A stretch of 64,000 nt of DNA from Ginglymostoma cirratum (lineage: Eukaryota). A model generated the notes under the pieces. That model was not told the DNA's origin and did not search any database. It worked only from the letters and a program-made list of their open reading frames with translations. Positions within the stretch are counted from its first letter, which is position 1. Each line of letters begins with the position of its first letter. This document shows, piece by piece, positions 1 through 48,900 of this stretch. The stretch is from NCBI GenBank assembly GCA_024137785.1, contig JAHRHZ010000031.1, forward strand, positions 4,623,684 to 4,687,683. Reading direction: 5' to 3'. The position numbers and the translations under genes were made by a program.

Positions 1-420
1 CTTAGAAAGGGAGTTTCAGAATTTTGACTCAGTGACAGAGAAGGAATGCTAGCATAGTTCCAAGTCAGAATAGTATATGACTTGCATCAGTGGGGGAGGG
101 AATGAATGTTCAAGGTTTTGGATGTAGTGCCAATCAACTGGACTGCTTTATCCTAAATGATGTAAAGTTTCTTGAGTGTCATTGGAGCTCCACTCATTCA
201 AACAAGTTAGAAATTTCATCACATTCCCGACTTGTGCTTTGTAGATGGTGGACTGGATTCGGGAGTCAGGAGGTGAGTTACTAATTGCAGAATTCCTAGC
301 AACTCGTACCTGCAACTCTTGCTACCGTATGCATATGGCTGGTCCACTACAACTGTCAGTCAATGGTAATACCCAGGGTGATGATCATTGGCGATTCAGT
401 CATGGTAATGCAATTGACCT
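1..420 (-). mobile_element. Decayed non-LTR retrotransposon ('LINE family B', CR1/L2/Crack-group), RT C-terminal part
   Basis: Reverse complement resembles the plus-strand copy at 6340-7050. The same element resumes at about 1036 after a CR1 insertion. Confidence 0.6.
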
Positions 421-2079: not shown

Positions 2080-4285
2080 ATACGTGGAATGCCTACAGGA
2101 TGGCTTTTTGGAACAGCTTGTGATGGAGCCCACAAGGGAGCAGGCTATTTTGGACTTAGTGCTATGTAATGAGCCAGACTTTATCAAAGATCTTAAAGTA
2201 AGGGAACACTTAGGAGGCAGCGATCATAATATGGTAGAGTTCAGTCTGCGGTTTGAAAGAGAGAAGGCAAAATCAGATGTAATGGTGTTACAGTTAAATA
2301 AAAGTAATTATAGGGGCATGAGAGAGGAACTGACAAAAATCGACTGGAAGCAGAGCCTAGCGGGGAAGACAGTAGAACAACAATGGCAGGAGTTTCTGGG
2401 TGTAATTGAGGACACAATACAGAGGTTCATCCCAAAGAAAAGAAAGATTATCCGGGGGAGGATTAGACAGCCATGGCTGACAAAGGAAGTCAAGAAACGT
2501 ATCAAAGAAAAGAGACAGCCTATATAGTGGCCAAGAGCACTGGGAAATCAGAAGATTGGGAAGGGTACAAGAACAAACAGAGGATAACAAAGAGAGAAAT
2601 AAGGAAGGAGAGGATCAAATACGAATGTAGGCTAGCCAGTAATATTAGAAATGATAGTAAAAGTTTCTTTCAATACATAAGAAACAAACGAGAGGCAAAA
2701 GTAGACATTGGGCCACTCCAAACTGATGCTGGAAGGCTAGTGAAGGGAGATAAGGAAATAGCTGAAGAACTTAATAAGTATTTTGCGTCAGTCTTCACAG
2801 TGGAAGACATGAGTAATATCCCAACAATTAAGGAGAGTCAGGGGGCAGAGTTGAGTATGGTAGGCATTAGAAAAGAGAAAGTGCTAGAAAAGCTAAAAGG
2901 TCTAAAAATTGATAAATCTCCTGGCCCCGAGGGGCTGCATCCTAGAGTTCTGAGGGAGGTGGCTGAGGAAATAGCAGAGGCGTTGGTTGTGATCTTTCAA
3001 AAGTCACTGGAGTCAGGGCAAGTCCCAGAAGATTGGAAAATCGCTGTTGTAACCCCCTTGTTTAAGAAAGGATCAAGTCAAAAGATGGAAAATTATAGGC
3101 CGATTAGCCTAACCTCGGTTGTTGGTAAAATTCTAGAATCCATCGTTAAGGATGAGATTTCTAAATTCTTGGAAGTGCAGGGTCGGATTAGAACAAGTCA
3201 GCATGGATTCAGTAAGGGGAGGTCATGTCTGACAAACCTGTCAGAATTCTTTGAGGAGGTAACAAGTAGGTTAGACAAGGGAAACCCAGTGGATGTTATC
3301 TATCTAGACTTCCAAAAGGCCTTTGATAAGGTGCCTCACGGGAGGCTGCTGAGTAAGGTGAGGGCCCAAGGTGTTCGAGGTGAGTTACTGGCATGGATTA
3401 AGGATTGGCTGTCTGACAGAAGGCAGAGAGTTGGGATAAAAGGCTCTTTTTCGGAATGGCAACCGGTGACAAGTGGTGTCCCGCAGGGTTCAGTGTTGGG
3501 GCCGCAGCTGTTCACCTTATATATTAATGATCTGGATGAAGGGACTGGGGGCAGTCTGGCGAAGTTTGCTGATGATATGAAGTTGGGTGGACAGGCAGGT
3601 AGTACGGAGGAGGTGGGGAGGCTGCAGAATGATTTAGACAGTTTAGGAAAGTGGTCCAGGAAATGGCTGCTGAAATTTAACGTGAGCAAATGCGAGGTCT
3701 TCCACTTTGGAAAAAAGAATACAGGCATGGACTATTTTCTGAACGGTGAGAAAATTCATAAAGCCGAAGTACAAAGGGATCTGGGAGTGCTAGTACAGGA
3801 TTCTCTAAAGGTTAACTTGCAGGTTGAGTCTGTGATTAAGAAAGCGAATGGAATGTTGTCATTTATCTCAAGAGGGTTGGAATATAAAAGCAGTGATGTG
3901 CTTCTGAGACTTTATAAAGCTCTAGTTAGGCCCCATTTCGAATACTGTGTCCAATTTTGGGCCCCACACTTCAGGAAGGACATACTGGCACTGGAGCGTG
4001 TCCAGCAGAGATTCACACGGATGATCCCTGGAATCGTAGGCCTAACATACGATGAATGGCTGAGGACCCTGGGATTGTATTCATTAGAGTTTAGAAGGTT
4101 GAGGGGGGGCCGGGATGTTGAATGTCTTCAAGGCATTGATAAATTCTTGATCTCGCAAGGAATCAAGGGCTACGGGGAGAGTGCGGGTAAGTGGAGTTGA
4201 AATGCTCATCAGCCATGACTAAATGGCGGAGTGGACTCGATGGGCCGAATGGCCTTACTTCCACTCCTATGTCTTATGGTCTTAT
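2080..4285 (+). mobile_element. Young 5'-truncated CR1 LINE (end of APE domain, RT, 3' UTR)
   Basis: ORFs 2012-2527 (EPTREQAILDLVLCNE, LGGSDHNMV) and 2473-4200 are joined by one frameshift. The 3' tail is 'cctatgtcttatggtctta'. Confidence 0.95.
2473..4200 (+). pseudogene. CR1 ORF2 reverse-transcriptase reading frame (575 aa, truncated, internal deletion near the C-terminus)
   Basis: Motifs NYRPISLTSVVGK, QHGF, YLDFQKAFDKVPH, GVPQGSVLGP, KFADD and YCVQFWAP. Confidence 0.92.
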
Positions 4286-5266: not shown

Positions 5267-5550
5267 AAAACCGAAAGAGCTGCGGATGCTGTCCATCAGA
5301 AAAAAAACAGAAATTGCTGGAAAAGCTCAGCAGGTCGGGCAGAATCCGTGGAGAGAAATCAGACTTAATGTTTCTGGTTGAGTAATGCTTCCTCACAGCT
5401 GATAGTAGCTAGGAAAAGCTACCTAGGAAAAGGTTTTCCTAGCTACCATCAGTTCTGAGGAATGGTCACTTGACTCAAAGCGTTAACTCTGATTTCTCTC
5501 CACAGATCCTGACAGACCTGCTGAGCTTTTCCAGCAATTTCTGTTTTTGG
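5267..5550. mobile_element. Penelope-like (family B) fold-back pLTR insertion with 15-bp TSD
   Basis: Perfect direct repeat ttcaactaaacatta at 5252-5266 and 5551-5565. Arms at about 5267-5417 and 5434-5550 are reverse complements. The sequence matches the pLTR downstream of the GIY-YIG relic at 26940-27090. Confidence 0.9.
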
Positions 5551-25885: not shown

Positions 25886-27090
25886 CTCCTCCTTTATTCC
25901 CAACACGTCCCCACTCCCATGGCACCTCTCCTTGCAAAGGGGAGGCAATGGTCCAGTGGTATTATCACTGGACTGTTAACCCAGAGACTCAGATAACATT
26001 CTGGGGACCCATGTTTAAATCCCGCCATGGCAGATTGTGGAATTTGAATTCAATAAATATCTGGAATTAAGAATCTAATGATGACCATGAATCCATTGTC
26101 AGGAGAATTGTCAGGAAAAACCCATCTGGTTCACCAATGTCCTTTAGGGAAGGAAACTGCCATCCTTACCTGGTCTGGCCTACATGTGACTCCAGACCCA
26201 CAGCAATGTGGTTGACTCTTAACTGCCCTCTGGGCAATTAGGGATGGGTAATAAATGCTGCCTCACCAGTGACGCCTTCATCCTGTGAATGAATAAATTG
26301 CAGGATGTGTAATGCATGGCCGCTTACTTCCTCCACCCTCACTATCCCAGGCCCCAGACACATCTTTCAGGTGAAACAGCGCTTTACTTGCACTTCACTC
26401 AATCTAGTCCAATGTATTTGCTGCTCACAAATGTGGTCTCCTCTATATTATGATATTATGGAAATGAAGCACAGACTGGGGGACTGCTTTGGAGAAAACC
26501 TGCACTCTGTCTGCAAAAATGACCCTGAGCTTCCAATTGCCTGCCACTTCAACACTTCACCCTGTTTCCTACCCAATATATCTCTCTCAGATTTACTGCA
26601 GTTCCCCAGTAATGTTCAGTGCAAACTGGAAGAATAGCACCTTATTTTCTGTTTAGGAACTCTGCAGCCTTCTGGAATCAATGTTGAGTTCAACAATTTT
26701 AGAGCTATAGCACCTTCCCCCATGCCTTTTCCCCACCCCACACATCAAGGGCTGTGTGGGCTGCTACCACACACAATCTATTGTCAACTTCTAATAGTTC
26801 CCATTAGCAATTATTCATTACATCAGACTGACCTTTACTCAGTCCTTCATCTGTGCAACTATATTTCTTTCTCTTTGGGCTCTACCCCACCTATCATTTG
26901 ATCTTTCCCCCACCCCATCTTCTAATTAATACCAACCTTTTCTGAGCTACCATCAGTTCTGAAGCGGAGTCACTGGACCCAAAATATTAATTCTGCTTTC
27001 TCTTCACAGATGCTGCCAGACCTGCTGAGTTTTTCCAGCAATTACTGTTTTTGTTTCTGATTGCCAGCATCTGCAGTTCTTTCAGTTTTC
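25886..27090 (+). mobile_element. Penelope-like (family B) GIY-YIG endonuclease relic plus pLTR, split by a SINE
   Basis: HGTSPC|CRMCN..TIPGPRHIFQVKQRFTCTSLNLV.CICCS..RLGDCFGENL..NDPELPIACHFN..KLEE. The pLTR with its tail ends at about 27090. Confidence 0.9.
25939..26298 (+). mobile_element. Full-length tRNA-derived SINE (family B)
   Basis: A-box 'tggtccagtgg', B-box-like 'gtttaaatcc', near-identical to 36119-36470, and ends 'gaatgaataaa'. Confidence 0.9.
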
Positions 27091-27793: not shown

Positions 27794-27942
27794 TAAAAAC
27801 CGAAAGAACTGTGGATGCTGTAAATCAGGAACAAAAACAGAGGTTGCTGGAAAAGATCAGCAGGCCCAAAACATTAATGCTGATTTTTTGTTCACAGATG
27901 CTGCCAGACCCACTGAGCTTTTCCAGCAACTTCTGTTTTTGT
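27794..27942. mobile_element. PLE family B mini fold-back insertion
   Basis: 'acaaaaacagaggttgctggaaaagatcag' pairs with 'ctgagcttttccagcaacttctgtttttgt'. Degenerate flanking repeat accatcttaccca/actatcctatcca. Confidence 0.75.
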
Positions 27943-28039: not shown

Positions 28040-28644
28040 AGATAACAAGGTGTGGAGCTGGATGAACACAGCAGGCCAAGCAGCATCAAAGGAGCAGGAA
28101 AGCTTGACGTTTCGGGCCTAGACCCTTCATCAGAAATGGGGGAGGGGAAGAGGGTTCTGAAATAAATAGGGAGAGAGGGGGAGGCAAAATCTCCCCTCCC
28201 CCAACCGCATCCCAAAACCAGCCCAGCTCGTCCCCGCCTTCCTAACCTGTTCTTCCTCTCACCTATCCCCTCGTCCCATCTCAAGCCGCACCCCCATCTC
28301 CTATCTACTAACCTCATCCCGCCCCCTTGACCTGTCCGTCCTCCCTGGACTGACCTATCTCCTCCCTACCTCCCTACCTACACTCACCTTTACTGGCTCC
28401 ATCCCAGCCTCTTTGACTTGTCTGCCTCCTCTCCACCTATCTTCTCCTCTATCCATCTTCTATGCGCCTCCCCCTCTCTCCCTATTTATTTCAGAACCCT
28501 CTTCCCCTCCCCCATTTCTGATGAAGGGTCTAGGCCCAAAACGTCAAGCTTTCCTGCTCCTATGATGCTGCTTGGCCTGCTGTGTTCATCCAGCTCCACA
28601 CCTTGTTATCTCTGATTCTCCAGCATCCACAGTACGTATTATCT
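28040..28644. mobile_element. PLE family A fold-back insertion with 16-bp TSD
   Basis: ctaatactgtccactt (28024-28039) versus ctaatactgtgcacat (28645-28660). Arm 28040-28185(-) is inverted relative to 28186-28644(+). Confidence 0.92.
28106..28133 (-). ncRNA. Minimal hammerhead ribozyme, intact core (PLE family A)
   Basis: Minus strand reads ttt-CTGATGA-a-gggtc ta ggccc-GAAA-CG-TC-aag. Confidence 0.75.
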
Positions 28645-29620
28645 CTAATACTGTGCACATCCTGCTTTGTCCCAATTTTACTCAGCTGTGCCAAAGTGCT
28701 ATGAGGGACATCACACTCTGCATTTTTGTTAAATGGAACCTGAAATGTGAAGCAGAACTGTGCTGGGGGGATAGTATGTGCAGAGCAGCAATACAATGAT
28801 CATTGCTAATCCTCAGAAGGCTTGAGCCATAGTTTAAACCTTAGAAAAAATACTTGGAACTTAATGTACCAGTCATACTGGAGATCCATTTGAAGCATTC
28901 AAGATGAGTTGGACAAGTATATGTGATTCACTTGTTTCCCTTTTTCCTACTAGGACTGCCTCCATGTCCATACTTCTTCATCACTCTGGAATTCTTTCCA
29001 ACCCCCATATTCCTCTAATGCATCTGAACTCATCTAACTCATGTGCTCATGCCTTCTGTTGGCAAGAAAGATCAACAATTCCACCTTCTCTAAACTTCTC
29101 TGCTTCTTGAACCGTCTCTTCTCCTTTAAGATTCTCCCTTTTAACCAAGCAATGTGCCATCATGTGGTTCAGTATAAAATTCTGATTTATAACCATCCTG
29201 TGAAGCATCTTGGAATGTTTATTGCTTTAATGTTGCACTATAAATTAAGTTTCTGTTGTTGCCATCAATGTAGCACCAGCAGTCAGCAGCTACAATCTAA
29301 CTACATCTGAACCACATAGCTCATTACAGCAGATCCTACAGCTTGCCCTGGCAAGCAAGTGAATGATAAGTAAGTTAACCCTTCAGAAAATAGATTTCTG
29401 TTCAAGAGGATCATTGTTTTCATAATTGAGAAATGATATCTTTTGACAACCTGCATTAATAAAATTCACAATATAATACACAGGAAAAATGAAGAATACT
29501 AAAGCCAATGAGTTCAGTTCCATGTTTAGCAACAGGATAAAAAAAACACTGATATGATGAACCTAGGAGTATTCATGGTCCAGGCATGTCGTAAAGAACG
29601 CGTCCAATATTGACCACTAT

Positions 29621-32774: not shown

Positions 32775-33080
32775 AATCAGGTAATGTTCTGGAAACCTGT
32801 GTTTACCATGGCAGATGGTGGAATTTGAATTCAAAATGAAATTGGAATTAAAATTTTAATGACAATGATGAAACCACTGCCGATTTTTGGAAAAACTCAT
32901 CTGGTTCATTAATGCCCCTTAGGGAAGAAAACTGCCATCCCTACCTGGTCTGGCATGCATGTGACTCCAGACCCACAACAATTGTTGACTTGCAACTGCT
33001 GTCTGAGCAAATTAGGGATTGGCAATAAATATTAGCCTAGCCAGCAATGACCACATCCAATAAATGAATGAAAAAATAAA
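32775..33080 (+). mobile_element. 5'-truncated tRNA-SINE (family B)
   Basis: Aligns by eye with 26000-26298. Confidence 0.85.
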
Positions 33081-35585: not shown

Positions 35586-36118
35586 TAAGACTGAGTAATT
35601 ATCACCTTGGAGGTACTACTTCTTAAGTTGGCACTGAGCTCCTCATACTATGTTTGTCTTACCAATGTGTCTCATACACATGAGTACCAAAGTGACTGGA
35701 TCGTCCTCCTCCTCTTCCTACTTCAAATTACCTTCCACTCCTGAGCAGATGTCCTGAACCTTGCTACCTGTCAAGAAACATAATCTCCTGCACTTGCACT
35801 CTTTGCGCCAAAGGACAGTGTCAATCCTTTTGACATGCTGTTGCCATTTACCACTAAATTCCTCTTTACTGTCCCAACTTGAATGGCTTCCCCACTATGG
35901 TGCCGTAATCAATTGATAATCCACATCACAGCTTCCAGTCTCATCCAGACAAACTGAAAGGACCTCGAACGTGTTGGACAAACTTCAAAAGCCAAGGGCC
36001 CTGTGTTCCGCCCTCTGGGTACCCTTACCTGCCCCACTCACAGTCACAATTTTCTGTTCCTGAATACTGACCAAATACCGACCACATTGTCCATTCTGCC
36101 ATTCTGCCATCCTTAAAA

Positions 36119-36470
36119 GGGGAGACAATGGCCTAGTGGTATTATCGCTGGACTGTTAATCCAGAGACCCAGCTAACATTCTGGGACCCAGGTTCCAATC
36201 CCGCCACAACAGATGGTGGAATTTGAATTCAATAAATATCTGGAATTAAGAATCTAATGATGACCATGAATCCATTGTCGATTGTCAGGAAAAACCCATA
36301 TGGCTCGCTAATGTCCTTTAGGTAAGGGAACTGCCATCCTTGTCTGGCCTACATGTGACTCCAGACCCACATCAATGTGATTGACTCTTAACGGCCCTTC
36401 GGGCAATTAGGGATGGGCAATAAATGCTGCCTAGCCAACAATGCCCTCATCCTGTGAACGAATAAAGAAA
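36119..36470 (+). mobile_element. Full-length tRNA-derived SINE (family B)
   Basis: A-box 'tggcctagtgg', B-box 'ggttccaatcc', LINE family B-type tail and A-rich end. Confidence 0.9.
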
Positions 36471-41435: not shown

Positions 41436-41834
41436 TGATGTAGCAGGAAACATAGATAAAAGGTACTGCAGATGCTGGAGAATCCGAGATAACAAGCGTG
41501 GGGCTGGATGAACACAGCAGGTCAAGCAGCATCATAGGAGCAGGAAAACTTGACGTTTTGGGCCTAAACCCTTCATCAGAAATGGGGGAGGGGAAGAGGG
41601 TTCTAAAATAAATAGGGAGAGAGGGGGAGGCGGATAGAGGATGGATAGAGGAGAGGATAAGTGGAGAGGAGGCAGACAAGTCGAAGAGGCGGGGATGGAG
41701 CCAGGAAAGGTGAGTGTAGGTAGGGGGGTAGGGAGGAGATAGGTCAGTCCAGGGAGGACGGACAGGTCAAGGGGGCAGGATGATGTTAGTAGATAGGAGA
41801 TGGGGGTGTGGCTTGAGGTGAGAGGAAAAACAGG

Positions 41835-43451
41835 TTAGGGAGGTGGAGATGAGCTAGGCTGGTTTTGGGATGCGGTTGGGGGAGGGGAGATTTTGAAGCT
41901 TGTGAAACCCACATTGATGCCATTGGGCTGCAGGGGTCCCAGGCTGAATATGATTTGCTGTTCCTGCAGCCTTCGGGTGGCATCACTGTGGCANNNNNNN
42001 NNNNNNNNNNNNNNNNNNNNNNNNNNNNNNNNNNNNNNNNNNNNNNNNNNNNNNNNNNNNNNNNNNNNNNNNNNNNNNNNNNNNNNNNNNNNNNNNNNNN
42101 NNNNNNNNNNNNNNNNNNNNNNNNNNNNNNNNNNNNNNNNNNNNNNNNNNNNNNNNNNNNNNNNNNNNNNNNNNNNNNNNNNNNNNNNNNNNNNNNNNNN
42201 NNNNNNNNNNNNNNNNNNNNNNNNNNNNNNNNNNNNNNNNNNNNNNNNNNNNNNNNNNNNNNNNNNNNNNNNNNNNNNNNNNNNNNNNNNNNNNNNNNNN
42301 NNNNNNNNNNNNNNNNNNNNNNNNNNNNNNNNNNNNNNNNNNNNNNNNNNNNNNNNNNNNNNNNNNNNNNNNNNNNNNNNNNNNNNNNNNNNNGGGAGTG
42401 TGGAGCGGACAAGGGAGTCGCGGAGGGAGTGGTCCCTCCGGAAGGCAGATAAGGGTGGGGAGGGAAACATGTCTTTGGAGGTGGGGTCTGATTGCAGATG
42501 GCGGAAGTGTCAGAGGATGATGCGTTGGATGCGGAGGTTGGTGGGGTGGTATGTGTGGACGAGGGGGATTCTTTTTTGGTTACTATTGCGGGGACGGGGC
42601 GTGAGGGATGTGTTCCGGGAAATGCGGGAGACACGGTCGAGGGCGTTCTCGACCACTGTAGGGGGGAAGTTGCGGTCCTTGAAGAATGAGGACATTTGGG
42701 ATGTACGGGAGTGGAATGTCTCATCCTGGGAGCAGATGCGGCGGAGGCGAAGGAATTGGGAATAGGGGATGGCACTTTTGCAGGAAGGTGGGTGGGAGGA
42801 GGTGCATTCCAGGTAGCTGTGGGAGTCAGTGGGCTTGAAATGGACATCGGTTTCTAGGTGGTTACCCGAGATGGAGACAGAGAGGTCCAAGGAGGAGAGA
42901 GAAGTGTTGGAGATGGTCCAGGTGAACTTTAGGTTGGGGTGGAAGGTGTTGGTGAAGTGAATGAACAGTTCGAGCTCCTCGTGGGAGCACGAGGCGGCGC
43001 CGATGCAGTCATCAATGTAATGGAGGAAGAGGTGGGGTTTAGGGCCAGTGTAGGTACGGAAGAGGGATTGTTCCACGTAACCTACAAAGAGGCAGGCATA
43101 GCTTGGGCCCATGCGGGTACCCATGGCCACCCCCTTTGTCTGTAGGAAGTGGGAGGAATTGAAAGAGAAGTTGTTGAGGGTGAGGACGAGTTCAGCTAAG
43201 CGGATGAGGGTGTCGGTGGAGGGGGATTGGTCAGTTCTGCGGGACAGGAAGAAGCGGAGGGCCTTTAGGCCATCAGCATGGGGAATACAGGTGTATAGGG
43301 ACTGGACGTCCATAGTAAAAATGAGGTGTTGGGGACCGGGGAATTGGAAGTTCTGGAGGAGGTGGAGGGCATGGGTGGTGTCACGGACATAGGTAGGGAG
43401 TTCCTGGACCAAGGGGGTGAAAATGGAGTCTAGGTAGGTGGAGATGAGTTC
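41835..43451 (-). pseudogene. Penelope-type RT plus GIY-YIG ORF (5'-truncated, one premature TGA at 42510-42512, endonuclease mostly inside the N gap)
   Basis: LIFTMDVQSLYTCIPH, QTKGVAMGTRMGPSYACLFVG, YIDDC, KPTDSHSYL and IPYSQFLRLRRICS. The frame continues in ORF 41835-42470 to LQPNGINVGFTSF. Confidence 0.92.
41994..42393. other. Assembly gap (400 N)
   Basis: Run of n. Confidence 1.
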
Positions 43452-43595
43452 CTACCTACACTCACCTTTCCTGGCTCCATCCCCGCCTCTTCGACTTGTC
43501 TGCCTCCTCTCCACCTATCCTCTCCTCTATCCATCTTCTATCCACCTCCCCCTCTCTCCCTATTTATTTCAGAGCCCTCTTCCCCTCCCCCATTT

Positions 43596-43623
43596 CTGAT
43601 GAAGGGTCTAGGCCCGAAACGTC
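43596..43623 (+). ncRNA. Minimal hammerhead ribozyme, intact core (PLE family A)
   Basis: ttt-CTGATGA-a-gggtc ta ggccc-GAAA-CG-TC-aag. Confidence 0.75.
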
Positions 43624-43719
43624 AAGTTTTCCTGCTCCTATGATGCTGCTTGACCTGCTGTGTTCATCCAGCCCCATGCTTGTTAGCAGGAAACATAGAT
43701 CCCTTTGCATAGGAGCTCA

Positions 43720-45029: not shown

Positions 45030-45862
45030 TTGATTTGGTTTATTAGTGTCACATGTACAGAGATACAGTGAATAATATTGTATTGCATGCTAACCGGATA
45101 AATCATACCTTATGTCAGTACATCAGAGTAACAGAACAGAATGCAGAATGTAGTGCTACAGCTACAGAAAAGGTACTGAGAAAGATCAACACTAATATAT
45201 GAGAGGTCAATTCATAAGTCTAACAATAGTGTGGAAGAAGATGTTGGTATGTGTTTTCAAACTTTATTATCTTCTACCTGATAGAAGAGGATGGAAGAGA
45301 GTATAACTGTAGTGAGAGGGGTCTTGATTGTGTTGGCTGCTTTCCTGAGGCAGCGAGAACTGTAGACAGAGTCAACAGGAGGAAAACTGATTTGCATGAC
45401 AGACTGGGCAGTGTTCACAATTCTCTGTAATTCCTTGTGGTCTTTGGCAGAGGAGTTGCCATGCCAAGCTGCGCTTCATCCGAGTAGGTTGCTTTCCATG
45501 GTACATCTATAAAAATTGGTAAGTCATCTGTGGACATGCTGAATTTCCTTGGCCTTCTGACGAAGTAGAGGTATTATTGTGCTTTCTTGGACAAGGATAG
45601 ATTGTTGGTGATATTTATTCCCAGGAGTTTGATTCTCTCGACCAACTCCACCTCAGCACCATTGATGAAGACAGAGATGTGTCCTCCAAACCACTTCCTG
45701 ATGTCGGTGGCCAGCTATTTCATTTTGCTAATACTGTGGGAGAGATTTGTGTCTTTACTCTAAGCCACTAAGCTGTCTATCTCCTTCATGTGCTCTGTCT
45801 TGTACTTGTTTGAGAAGTGACCCACTACAATGATGTTATCAGCAAATTTGTAAATGGAGCTG
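45030..45862 (-). mobile_element. Rex1/Babar LINE 3' part
   Basis: Minus strand: SIYKFADNIIVVG, LLGINITNNLS, KKAQ..LYFVRRP..F.MS, NFYRCTMES, LQRIVNTAQ, LLSGRR. The tail lies at about 45030. Confidence 0.85.
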
Positions 45863-45863
45863 A

Positions 45864-45963
45864 GGGAGGTGACGGCCTTGTGGTATTATCGTTGGACTGT
45901 TAATCCAGAAACACAGGTAATGTTCTGGGTTTGAATCGTGCAGTGGCACATGATAGAATTTGA
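45864..45963 (+). mobile_element. 5' head (about 100 bp) of the family B tRNA-SINE abutting the CR1 5' end
   Basis: gggaggtgacggccttgtggtattatcgttggactgttaatccag... matches 36119-36226. Confidence 0.85.
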
Positions 45964-48900
45964 GGTCCAGCAGAGGGTGACTGAGAGGAAGAGGCATCAC
46001 TTCAGCACATATATTAGAGCCTGGAAACAGTCAGCTGCACTGAGGAGTGGATTGTTGTGGGCCTGGTATCAAGGAGCACTTAAGCCCCAAACATTGCATC
46101 ACTGTAGTGTTTCCCTCCTCCTCTAACCAAAAAGAAAATCAGGGGGAGAGAGATGTGATATTGAAAATTGGTTGGTAGTAGAGTAAGTAGGCTGTTGGCT
46201 CGAGAGGCTTTGGTGAGCAGCGGCTCAGCAAAAAGTACAGGTAAGCTCAGGTAAAGTTCTTTTAATTTCCTCTTTAGTCTTAGAGCATTTGAGATGGTAG
46301 TTAGGGCAGTGGGATGCTCCTTCTGCAGGATGTGGGAGCTCAGGGAGACCTCCATCATCCCTGAAATAACAAGGTGTAGAGCTGGATGAACACAGCAGGC
46401 CAAGCAGGATCAGAGGAGAAGGAAAGCTGATGTTTTGGGCCTAGACCCTTCTTTTGAAATGGGAGAGGGGAAGGGGGTTCTGAAATAAATAGGGAGAGTG
46501 GGGAGGCGGATAGAAGATAGGTGGAGAGGAGATAGGCTGGTCAAAGAGGCGGTCATCCTTGATGACTACATGTGTGGAAAGTGCACCCAGCTGCAGCCCT
46601 GGGAGACCGTGTTAGGGAGCTGGAGCTGAGCTGGATGCACTCAGGATCACCAGGGATGCTGAGCGTATCATAGATAAGAGTTTTAGTGAGGTGGTCACAC
46701 CTAAGGTGCAGGCAGAGAGTAGCTGGGTGACCACCAGGAAAGGCAAAGGGAGTAGGCAGAGAGTGCAGGGATCCCCTGAGGCCAATCCTCTTGAAAACAA
46801 GTATACCATTTTGGATACAACTAGCGGGGATGACTGATTTGGGGAAAGCAGCAGTATCCAGGTTGGTGGCATTAGGACTGGCTCTGGGGAACAGCAGGAA
46901 GGGGTAAAGGTAAACATGACCTTAGTGATAGGAGACCCGATAGTTAGTGGGACAGACAGGAGATTCTGTGGCCGCAAATGGGAATCCAGGATGGTATGTC
47001 GCTTCCCAGGTGCCAGGGCTCAGGATGCCTCAAAGCAGTTGCAGAATGTTTTCACGAGGGTGAGCAGCCAGAAGTCATTGTGCACATTGGCACAAATGGC
47101 ATTGTAGAAATAGGGATTAGGTCCCGTGGAGTGATTATGGAGAGCGAGGAGAAAAGTTAAAACCAGGGCCTCGACGGTGATAATCTCTGGATTACTTCCA
47201 GTGCCATGTGCTAGAGAGGGTAAGAACAGGAGGTTATGGCAGATGAATATGTGGCTAAAGAATTGATGTAGGGGGCAGGGATTCAAATTCTTAGATCATT
47301 GGGATCTTTTCAGGGGCAGAGGTGACCTGTTCAAGAGGGATGGGTTGCACCTGAACTGGAGAGGCCGATGAACTCAGAGCATGGATAGGTACGTGGGGCT
47401 GTAATATTATAGCCATTACAGAAACATGCCTAAGGGAGGGAAAGGACTGGCAGCTTAATGTGCCGGGGTATAGGTGCTTTAGGGGGAACAGAGATGGAGG
47501 AAAGAGGGGAGGGGCGTTGCATTTTTGATACAGGGGATTATCACAGCAGTAGTGACAGATGAAATAACTCAGGGATCATCCAGTGAGGCTTTGTGGCTGG
47601 AGCTAAGAAATAATAAAGGGGTGATGATGTTATTGGGGTTGTACTATAGGCCACCAAATAGTCAACTGGAATTACAGGAACAAATATGCAAAGAAGAATG
47701 CAGAGACTTGCAGGGAAATAGGGTTGTCATAGTGGGGGTTTTAATTTTCCTAACATGGACTGGGACCTCCATAGTGCTAAGGGCTTAGATGGGGTGGAAT
47801 TTTTTTTAATGTGTTCAGGAAAGTTTCCTCAAGCAGTAGATAGAGGTTCCTACTCAGGAAGGGGCAAAACTCGACTTACTGTTGGGAAATAGAGCAGGAC
47901 AAGTGACTGAGGTGACTGTGGGGAAGCACTTTGGGACCAGAGAATGTAGTTGTATGAATTTTAAAATAGTTGCGGAGAAGGACAAAACTGGGCCACGGGT
48001 TCAAGTTCTAAATTGAGGCAAGGTGAACTTTGATGGAATTAGATGGGAGTTTGCAGGGGTTGATTGGAGTAGTTTGTTTGCGGGCAAAGGGACCTCTGGC
48101 AAATGGGAGGCCTTTAAAAGTGTGATAGCTAGAGTTCAAGGTCTACACGTTCCTGTGAGGGTGAAGGGCAAGGTTGCTAGGAGTAGGGGACCCTGGATGA
48201 CAAGAGATGTTGCGGCTTTGACCAGAAAAAGAAGGAGACATGGTTCAGGTACAGGCAGCTAGGATCAAGAGAATCCCTCCAAGACAGAAATTTACTGAAG
48301 AAGTAAATCAGGAGGGCAAAAAGGGGGCACAAGACAGGTTTGGCTGAGAAAATTAGGGTGAATCCTAAAAGATTCTTTAAGAATAATAAAGGAAAAAGAA
48401 TGAATAGAGAGAATATAGGACCCCTCAAGGACCAAAATGGACTTGTATGTATGGAACCGCAGGAGATGGGCAAGGTCCTGAATGAATATTTCTCCTCTGA
48501 GTTTACCGTGGAGAAAGACATGAAGACTTGGGAACTTGGGAAAGTTAGTGGCAATATTTTGGGGACAGTCCATATCACAGTAGAAGTGATGTTGGAAATA
48601 TTAGAATGTATGAAGGTGGATAAATCTCCAGGTCCTGATCAGATATATCCAAAAACACTGCAAGAGGATAGAGAAGAAATTGTGATAGCACTGGCATCAT
48701 CATTAGCTGCAGGAGAGGTCCTGGAAGACTGGAGAATGGTGAATATTGTGCCCTTATTCAAGAAGGGGTGCAAAGAAAAACCTGGGAATTATAGACCAGT
48801 AAGTTTAACATCTGTGCTGGACAAGTTACTTGAGAAGATTCTGAGGGATAAGATATACATGCATTTAGAAAGATAAGGTTTTATTAGGAGTAGTCAGCAT

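What the first reader, a model, noticed from the sequence alone, without database searches (positions are those of the whole stretch)
41441..43700. Three Penelope-like families carrying minimal hammerhead ribozymes, repeatedly arranged as fold-back pairs
Seen: the CUGANGA-stem II-GAAA-NUH pattern recurs in three pLTR families with different stems. Family A has stem II gggtc/ggccc and the palindrome ACGU (17569, 28106, 43596). Family B has stem I agtt/aact (5451, 10595, 26955). Family C has stem I acac/gtgt and the palindrome AGCU (52334). The core is conserved while the stems differ. Established: PLE pLTRs are known to encode minimal type-I hammerheads whose palindromic stem III favours dimeric cleavage. 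Inference: fold-back copies place a ribozyme motif on each strand, so read-through transcripts in either direction could be cleaved or form long dsRNA. This would be a dispersed self-cleaving RNA system in this shark genome.
Basis: partly seen in the sequence, partly recalled or inferred. Interest (0 to 1): 0.72.

Follow-up and report, generated by a model that had tools for sequence, protein, structure and literature searches.

The report
Penelope jumping-gene ends with hammerheads
This is one dead, mirror-image insertion of a Penelope-type jumping gene whose ends carry a tiny, already known hammerhead ribozyme motif; about half of the family's copies break off just before the motif rather than at its predicted cut site, which likely marks where the element's RNA starts and suggests it is mostly copied uncut.

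Summary
Motifs real, kind known. 41441-43700 is one Penelope-like (PLE) insertion: 17-bp target duplication, truncated RT, head-to-head pLTRs, 'tail' on one arm only. Families A, B and C all lie downstream of GIY-YIG-type frames and carry minimal type-I hammerheads, as published, opposite-strand pairs included. The 'ribozyme on each strand' reading fails: 2 of 14 window motifs are intact, the left arm here has G12>A, and 23 of 33 sampled fold-backs have no intact motif. Extra result: 46% of 27,175 exact family-A motifs lose their upstream sequence within 3 nt of the motif's start, about 30 nt below a TATA-like box at an initiator-like A; family B does the same, and 5 of 20 near-full-length A copies start there. 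The predicted cut site shows about 1-1.4% breaks (controls 0.4-0.5%). So the ribozyme likely sits at the RNA's 5' end and uncut RNA is likely the main template. The scan noted this shared start before on other DNA; I did not find it in print. Cleavage untested.

The parts
41441..41457 (.). target-site duplication, left copy (17 bp)
   Evidence: identical to 43684-43700
41458..41489 (-). PLE 'tail' (about 30 nt), on this arm only
   Evidence: family 3' ends cluster near +93 and +121..125 from C3
41552..41583 (-). left-arm hammerhead motif, dead (G12>A at 41559, a CpG site)
41608..41614 (-). TATA-like TATTTAT, 31 nt before the inferred start A
   Evidence: sequence; spacing; promoter role inferred
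41835..41993 (-). end of the PLE ORF (C-terminal end of the endonuclease region)
   Evidence: sister copies carry GIY-YIG PF01541, E 4.5e-5, above cut-off
42394..43451 (-). 5'-truncated RT region with an in-frame stop at 42510-42512
   Evidence: RVT_1 E 8e-6, below cut-off; 96-97% identical to 126 other scored copies
43431..43458 (.). inversion junction at 43450/43451 with an 8-bp inverted repeat around a 12-nt spacer
   Evidence: sequence
43451..43683 (+). inverted pLTR arm without tail; 8 mismatches in 235 nt to the left arm
43561..43567 (+). TATA-like TATTTAT
   Evidence: role inferred
43590..43596 (+). initiator-like CCATTTC; A at 43592 is the inferred RNA start and first base of stem I
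   Evidence: 5' break pile-up; start site inferred, not measured
43592..43627 (+). intact minimal type-I hammerhead: stem I AUUU/AAGU, core, extra A, stem II GGGU/GCCC, helix III ACGU; predicted cut after 43623
   Evidence: cleavage not tested
43684..43700 (.). target-site duplication, right copy
28040..28646 (.). second family-A fold-back; intact motif at 28133(-), G12>A at the 28518(+) motif, 14-bp duplication
26293..27055 (+). family B copy: decayed endonuclease-like frame followed by pLTR with a dead motif at 26959
51456..52424 (.). family C fold-back; decayed motifs at 51542(-) and 52338(+)

Best explanation
The region is one dead head-to-head insertion of an RT plus GIY-YIG Penelope-like retrotransposon, with a minimal hammerhead motif that likely forms the first ~36 nt of the element's RNA and is likely copied mostly uncut. 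Shown: TSD, one-sided tail, truncated RT, motif structure, and break statistics. Inferred: an upstream pLTR supplies a TATA/initiator promoter; the RNA starts at the first base of stem I; RT starts internally about 93 or about 121 nt below C3 (as shown in vitro for the anole element) and, in the 5' pLTR, runs off the RNA's 5' end, leaving 100-130-nt copies that start at the motif. Both nicked target strands are likely primed, one from each RT start, and the two cDNAs are joined head to head, giving the fold-back with a tail on one arm. The hammerhead likely acts rarely or late, as a protein-assisted dimer in source-element RNA, not in the scattered genomic relics.
For: Single event: 17-bp TSD; 20 of 33 head-to-head pairs have a 7-20-nt TSD and 30 of 33 pair one tailed with one tailless arm, p=7e-7. 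PLE: RVT_1 plus GIY-YIG in sister copies; endonuclease-type frames upstream of B and C pLTRs. 5' pile-up: 39 of 78 copies at risk end at -7..-1 (7.1%/nt) against 0.24%/nt at -50..-8 and 0.10%/nt at +27..+59; 14,799 of 27,175 exact motifs keep the upstream CCA; 21 of 30 B copies break at -6..0 (read by eye); 5 of 20 near-full-length A copies start at -5..-3 and none at the cut (L364 read by eye). TATA-like box 31 (A), 29 (B) and 31 (C) nt before an initiator-like A. 3 of 30 junctions repeat the first 7 nt, and G precedes the start A in 53 of 100, as run-off re-priming or cap copying would give. Constraint: core non-CpG 3/592 vs 135/6249 elsewhere, p=0.003; stems I and II change in pairs across families A-D with the core and G10.1-C11.1 kept. 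Literature: two internal RT starts, both strands extended, hammerhead protein-assisted and dispensable in vitro (PMC11167929 parts 1-2).
Against: No start site was measured; the RNA-seq run is unstranded and shows no end pile-ups. In family C only 7 of 30 copies break near the motif, mostly at -4/-5, whereas TATA spacing predicts -8, so a stop at the stem I edge fits C as well. The mode in A and B is -3, one base after the proposed start, and 5,648 A motifs have T at -4. Breaks inside the motif are also raised (1.06%/nt). The cut site shows a 2-3.5-fold bump over two controls, so some cut RNA may be copied. In family A the hammerhead-compatible fold is 5.8 kcal/mol above an alternative hairpin and stem I is only 2-4 bp. 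The G excess at -5 is also explained by hairpin junctions. D. virilis Penelope has a TATA-less internal promoter (PMC2377424). Arkhipova 2013 prefers self-priming on an antisense template for inverted junctions (PMC3846280 passage).
Confidence: 0.7

Rival explanations
1. One reading: fold-back copies form a dispersed self-cleaving RNA system that cuts read-through transcripts on either strand.
For: At least 27,175 exact family-A motifs, 1,185 of B and 362-439 of C; 45,173 reads of a poly(A) run lie on the left arm and some span fold-back joints; 5 of 33 pairs keep both motifs.
Against: Opposite-strand motifs cannot form the dimer in one RNA (inference); 23 of 33 pairs have no intact motif; decay follows CpG sites; a monomer min-HHR did not cleave and dimers were weak in vitro (PMC4209133 part 2).
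Confidence: 0.07
2. The pile-up is not a transcription start but an RT stop or RNA-processing site set by the ribozyme fold or a bound protein at the edge of stem I.
For: Breaks sit at the stem I edge in A, B and C; in C they fall 3-4 nt below the TATA-predicted start; breaks are raised across the whole motif.
Against: RT would be expected to stall on entering a structure from its 3' side, not after leaving it (inference); near-full-length copies start at the same place; TATA-like box and initiator sit at canonical spacing in all three families.
Confidence: 0.15
3. The hammerhead cuts the RNA, the unit is circularised or used with a 5'-OH end, and this cut RNA is the main template (model of PMC4209133).
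For: Core conserved and stems covary; breaks at the cut are about 1.4% and 1.0% against 0.5% and 0.4% at controls. A circular template would leave no break at the cut, so read-through copies are compatible with it.
Against: About half of the copies that reach the motif's 5' edge end there, which needs a linear RNA that still holds the uncut motif. Many cut-site breaks sit at A-rich or palindromic microhomology with the partner arm.
Confidence: 0.12
4. Fold-backs arise by self-priming (a hairpin of the first cDNA or an antisense template) rather than by priming at both target nicks.
For: 8-bp inverted repeat at the focal junction; one gap-free fold-back has arms 99.96% alike over 2.46 kb (L357); PMC3846280 passage.
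Against: 30 of 33 pairs have different 3' ends on the two arms; focal arms differ at a site that is polymorphic between subfamilies, though one transition could do that.
Confidence: 0.2

Closest known systems
[quoted passage not shown]
   Same: No loop 3, palindromic 15.1-16.1, extra base between A9 and G10.1, G10.1-C11.1 pair, short helix I, thousands of solo copies, and pairs 100-700 bp apart on opposite strands.
   Different: Host not among those named in the parts read (no shark term in the supplement searched); far higher copy number; the paper does not, in the parts read, place the motif at the RNA start.
EN+ PLE insertions with inverted pLTR, one-sided tail and TSD (Pen2a_Av, PMC3846280; Fig. 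2 legend of PMC8557442; passages read)
   Same: Head-to-head inverted pLTR, 30-40-nt tail on one end, TSD, palindromic junctions, partial tandems.
   Different: TSDs here are longer (mostly 12-18 bp against 8-10 bp); the pile-up of 5' ends at the hammerhead is not described in the passages read.
Poseidon of Anolis carolinensis, PAc (Frangieh 2024, PMC11167929; parts 1-2 of 4 read)
   Same: Two internal RT starts that define the tail; both strands cut and extended; uncut RNA is the main substrate; no RNA-seq ends at the cut.
   Different: PAc's ORF starts inside the hammerhead; here the long frame starts 167 nt below C3 and the linker has a cysteine motif.
Non-LTR retrozymes (preprint 10.64898/2026.07.22.740005; part 1 and passages read)
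   Same: Type-I hammerheads derived from PLE pLTRs; reported in one chondrichthyan genome.
   Different: Retrozymes are head-to-tail tandem arrays; these copies are mostly solo or head-to-head (7 of 58 neighbours direct).
Retroviral minus-strand strong-stop DNA (recalled, not from a call)
   Same: Internal priming near the RNA 5' end and run-off at the cap site.
   Different: No tRNA primer or integrase; the primer is inferred to be nicked target DNA.

Membership tests
EN+ Penelope-like element | [quoted passage not shown] | tested here: met
   Sister copies L043 and L047: RVT_1 then GIY-YIG above cut-off; endonuclease-type frames upstream of B and C pLTRs, read by eye
EN+ Penelope-like element | pLTRs from partial tandems, direct or inverted | tested here: met
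   Inverted arms; partial tandems L367 and L377
EN+ Penelope-like element | 30-40-nt tail on one end; TSD | tested here: met
   30 of 33 pairs long plus short; 20 of 33 with TSD
Neptune/Nematis clades | Zn-finger-like cysteine motif in the RT-EN linker | tested here: met
   CNRRKCYTC in A and like motifs in B and C; clade trait from PMC8557442 passage; exact spacing recalled
Neptune clade | RT phylogeny within Neptune | not tested
   No named reference RTs in hand; no tree built
Minimal type-I hammerhead of PLEs | Core CUGANGA, extra base, G10.1-C11.1, GAAA, palindromic helix III, UH | tested here: met
   43596(+), 28133(-) and intact B, C, D copies elsewhere; not met by 12 of 14 window sites
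Minimal type-I hammerhead of PLEs | Stems I and II kept by compensatory change | tested here: met
   Between families and C subfamilies (8 hand-picked copies, no formal statistic); stem I only 2-4 bp in A
Minimal type-I hammerhead of PLEs | Self-cleavage as a dimer | not testable with these tools
   RNA-seq cannot show ends; dimer fold not scorable by ViennaRNA
Rfam hammerhead models | Covariance-model match | tested here: not met
   No hammerhead family among 14 matches at E<=10
Non-LTR retrozyme | Head-to-tail tandem units each with a hammerhead | tested here: not met
   7 of 58 neighbours direct, no arrays in the sample

The most novel reading that the evidence does not exclude
PLE insertions in this genome record the replication cycle base by base: a TATA/initiator promoter in the upstream pLTR starts the RNA on the first base of the hammerhead, the enzyme makes retrovirus-like strong-stop cDNAs from two internal starts, a dimer primes both target strands at once to build the mirror image, and the ribozyme cuts only about 1% of templates, acting as a late decapping switch rather than as the maker of the template.
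Probability: 0.45. Interest if true: 0.6.

Novelty: new member of a known kind. Interest (0 to 1): 0.36.

Why it matters
The motifs and mirror layout are known PLE features, so the finding as written is ordinary. What could matter is the end map. PLE transposition and the role of their hammerheads are called unresolved in PMC8557442 and PMC11167929. Tens of thousands of young copies give a predicted RNA start, two RT starts and an upper bound on how often cut RNA is copied. One CAGE or cyclic-phosphate library could test all three.

Tried and rejected
Rfam scan: no hammerhead match. PDB sequence search of the ORF: two weak unrelated hits. Sequencing runs: no RNA holder listed; two raw runs under the same species label were laid, X22 gave 15 reads and X21 is unstranded with no end pile-ups. 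Dimer energy could not be scored because the pairs cross. The first ATG after the motif as ORF start: rejected, it meets a stop within 40 codons and changes frame between subfamilies (read); the long frame starts at +167. No same-strand splice joint among the joints shown (137 and 133 more were not shown). Cap-derived G as proof of a start site: not accepted, since duplications and hairpin junctions also give G. Strict alignment put false 5' ends at +29..+36 in old subfamilies; redone with two references. Lunse et al. 2017 on dimer cleavage is not held; I know it only from its title and a review passage. Literature searches for strong stop, TATA or transcription start with pLTR or hammerhead, and shark showed no paper describing the 5' pile-up; subscription papers, one unread supplement of PMC4209133 and preprint supplements could hold it.

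Full report
Observation. The motif at 43596(+) reads stem I AUUU/AAGU, CUGAUGA, an extra A, stem II GGGU/GCCC with a CUAG loop, GAA, the palindrome ACGU and C17, with the predicted cut after 43623. A descriptor for this shape hit 13 times in 40 tiles plus the window and never in five shuffles. Rfam finds no hammerhead at E<=10. Of 14 motif sites that I listed in the window, only 43596(+) and 28133(-) are intact. The three B copies and both C copies are decayed, and 17569 lacks its stem I 5' strand.

The focal element. 41441-41457 and 43684-43700 are the same 17 bases, so the span is one insertion. On the minus strand it holds a 5'-truncated RT frame with one in-frame stop, a run of 400 N, the end of the ORF, and a pLTR with tail and a G12>A motif. 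The right arm is a 233-nt inverted pLTR without tail; it differs from the left arm at 8 of 235 places. The RT fragment is 96-97% identical to 126 other scored copies. Sister copies carry RVT_1, a cysteine linker and GIY-YIG. B and C pLTRs also follow endonuclease-type frames with that linker, so all three are EN+ PLEs, likely Neptune-type; no tree was built.

Family layout. I sampled 100 tiles of 10 kb (252,610 of 1,000,000 bases were N) plus the window. Forty tiles were at round coordinates; sixty formed three blocks that I chose in sequence-rich regions. 139 copies covered offset +60; I kept the 124 at 80% identity or more. Of 58 neighbours within 3.5 kb, 33 are head-to-head, 18 tail-to-tail and 7 direct. 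30 of the 33 pair a tailed with a tailless arm (p=7e-7) and 20 have a detectable TSD. This layout is published (PMC3846280 and PMC8557442, passages), as are opposite-strand motif pairs (PMC4209133, parts 1-2). The two 3' ends match the two internal RT starts shown in vitro for the anole element (PMC11167929, parts 1-2).

Is it a working dispersed ribozyme system? Mostly not. 34 of 124 copies are intact; 23 of 33 fold-backs have no intact motif, 5 have one and 5 have two. A read-through RNA carries one sense motif and its complement, so it cannot form the ACGU dimer and should bury the motif in duplex (inference). The motif is still under constraint in the source lineages. In 61 young copies, non-CpG core sites differ at 3 of 592 bases against 135 of 6,249 elsewhere (p=0.003), and core CpG sites at 8% against 28%. 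The outside class includes minor subfamily variants, so this is not evidence of selection on dead copies. Stems change in pairs across families A-D (eight hand-picked copies). Against activity in family A: an alternative hairpin is 5.8 kcal/mol more stable and stem I is 2-4 bp.

Where copies begin. Offsets count from C3. 39 of 78 copies at risk end at -7..-1 (7.1% per base), against 0.24% at -50..-8, 1.06% inside the motif and 0.10% at +27..+59; 12 of the 124 copies were gap-limited and not counted as ends. Genome-wide, 14,799 of 27,175 exact motifs keep the three bases upstream, and 5,648 have T at -4. In B, 21 of the first 30 exact copies break at -6..0. In C, 7 of 30 break at -9..0. Among 20 of 40 listed copies with the ORF's N-terminus, 5 start at -5..-3, 4 at +3..+12 (one of them gap-limited), 2 have an upstream partial tandem, 1 is gap-limited at -7, 8 start further down, and none starts at the cut. 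A TATA-like box lies 31, 29 and 31 bases before an initiator-like A in A, B and C (promoter consensus recalled). G precedes the start A in 53 of the first 100 non-C cases, and 3 of 30 such junctions repeat the first 7 bases. I read this as run-off at the RNA's 5' end. Family C fits less well.

The cut site. The base before +28 departs from C in 685 of 26,051 and 821 of 50,972 copies of two subfamilies; 16 of 30 and 12 of 20 inspected cases are true breaks (read by eye, correcting the script's 11), which gives about 1.4% and 1.0%. Controls: 743 of 39,308 at +36 with 5 of 20 breaks, and 181 of 22,027 at +22 with 9 of 20 (script values 4 and 11), about 0.5% and 0.4%. The bump is 2-3.5-fold, rests on small inspected samples and often involves microhomology with the partner arm. 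It neither shows nor excludes rare cleavage. It is more than 30 times smaller than the pile-up at the start.

RNA. In poly(A) run X21, 45,173 of 12.9 million records lie on the left arm. Depth drops about threefold across the pile-up, and 9 of 15 joints shown have one end at 41579-41584 (same pattern). These reads come from many copies in an unstranded library, so they repeat the genomic picture and say nothing on ends.

Verdict. A new, very abundant member of a known kind. The useful residue is the end map, which the scan had noted on other DNA (not independent support; my reading was noted first) and which my searches did not find in print.

Noticed in passing
L127:557(-), L119:2241(+), L072, L080, L090, L108: A fourth hammerhead family (D) with extra base U, a longer stem II and ACGU; not seen in the window; its ORF was not checked.
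   Followed up: partly
window 41532, 41535, 41551 (offsets +47, +44, +28): RNA reads show sense A>G at 14-17% where sampled genomic copies show G in 1-2 of about 120 (the genomic count mixes two references that are one base out of register). Could be A-to-I editing of fold-back dsRNA or alleles of a few highly expressed copies.
   Followed up: partly
L290, L297, L303: The first 7 nt of the inferred RNA are repeated at the 5' junction, like a telomerase-style re-priming step.
   Followed up: partly
family C, e.g. window 52360-52385 and L161-L190: AATAAA lies about 10 nt below the predicted cut in C, not in the A and B copies shown; may set an RNA 3' end.
   Followed up: no
L357: Gap-free fold-back of about 5.4 kb with arms 99.96% alike over 2.46 kb.
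   Followed up: no
L172, L175, L199: Family A ends inserted just below the motif of C or B pLTRs, suggesting PLEs insert into one another.
   Followed up: no
window 2467-4200 (+): 577-aa open RT frame of a LINE, RVT_1 E 4e-33; further decayed LINE pieces at 48300-50100 and 58980-59570.
   Followed up: no
window 25936-26297, 32785-32982, 36116-36466, 45860-45929: Dispersed repeat of about 350 bp, SINE-like by size; not identified.
   Followed up: no
window 17481-17667, 5303-5548, 27800-27942: Short fold-backs of A and B ends; 17541-17647 gives a sub-threshold match to a miRNA hairpin model.
   Followed up: partly
L161:365-904: Open frame that looks like an EH-domain ATPase exon (recalled motif) near a family C copy.
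   Followed up: no
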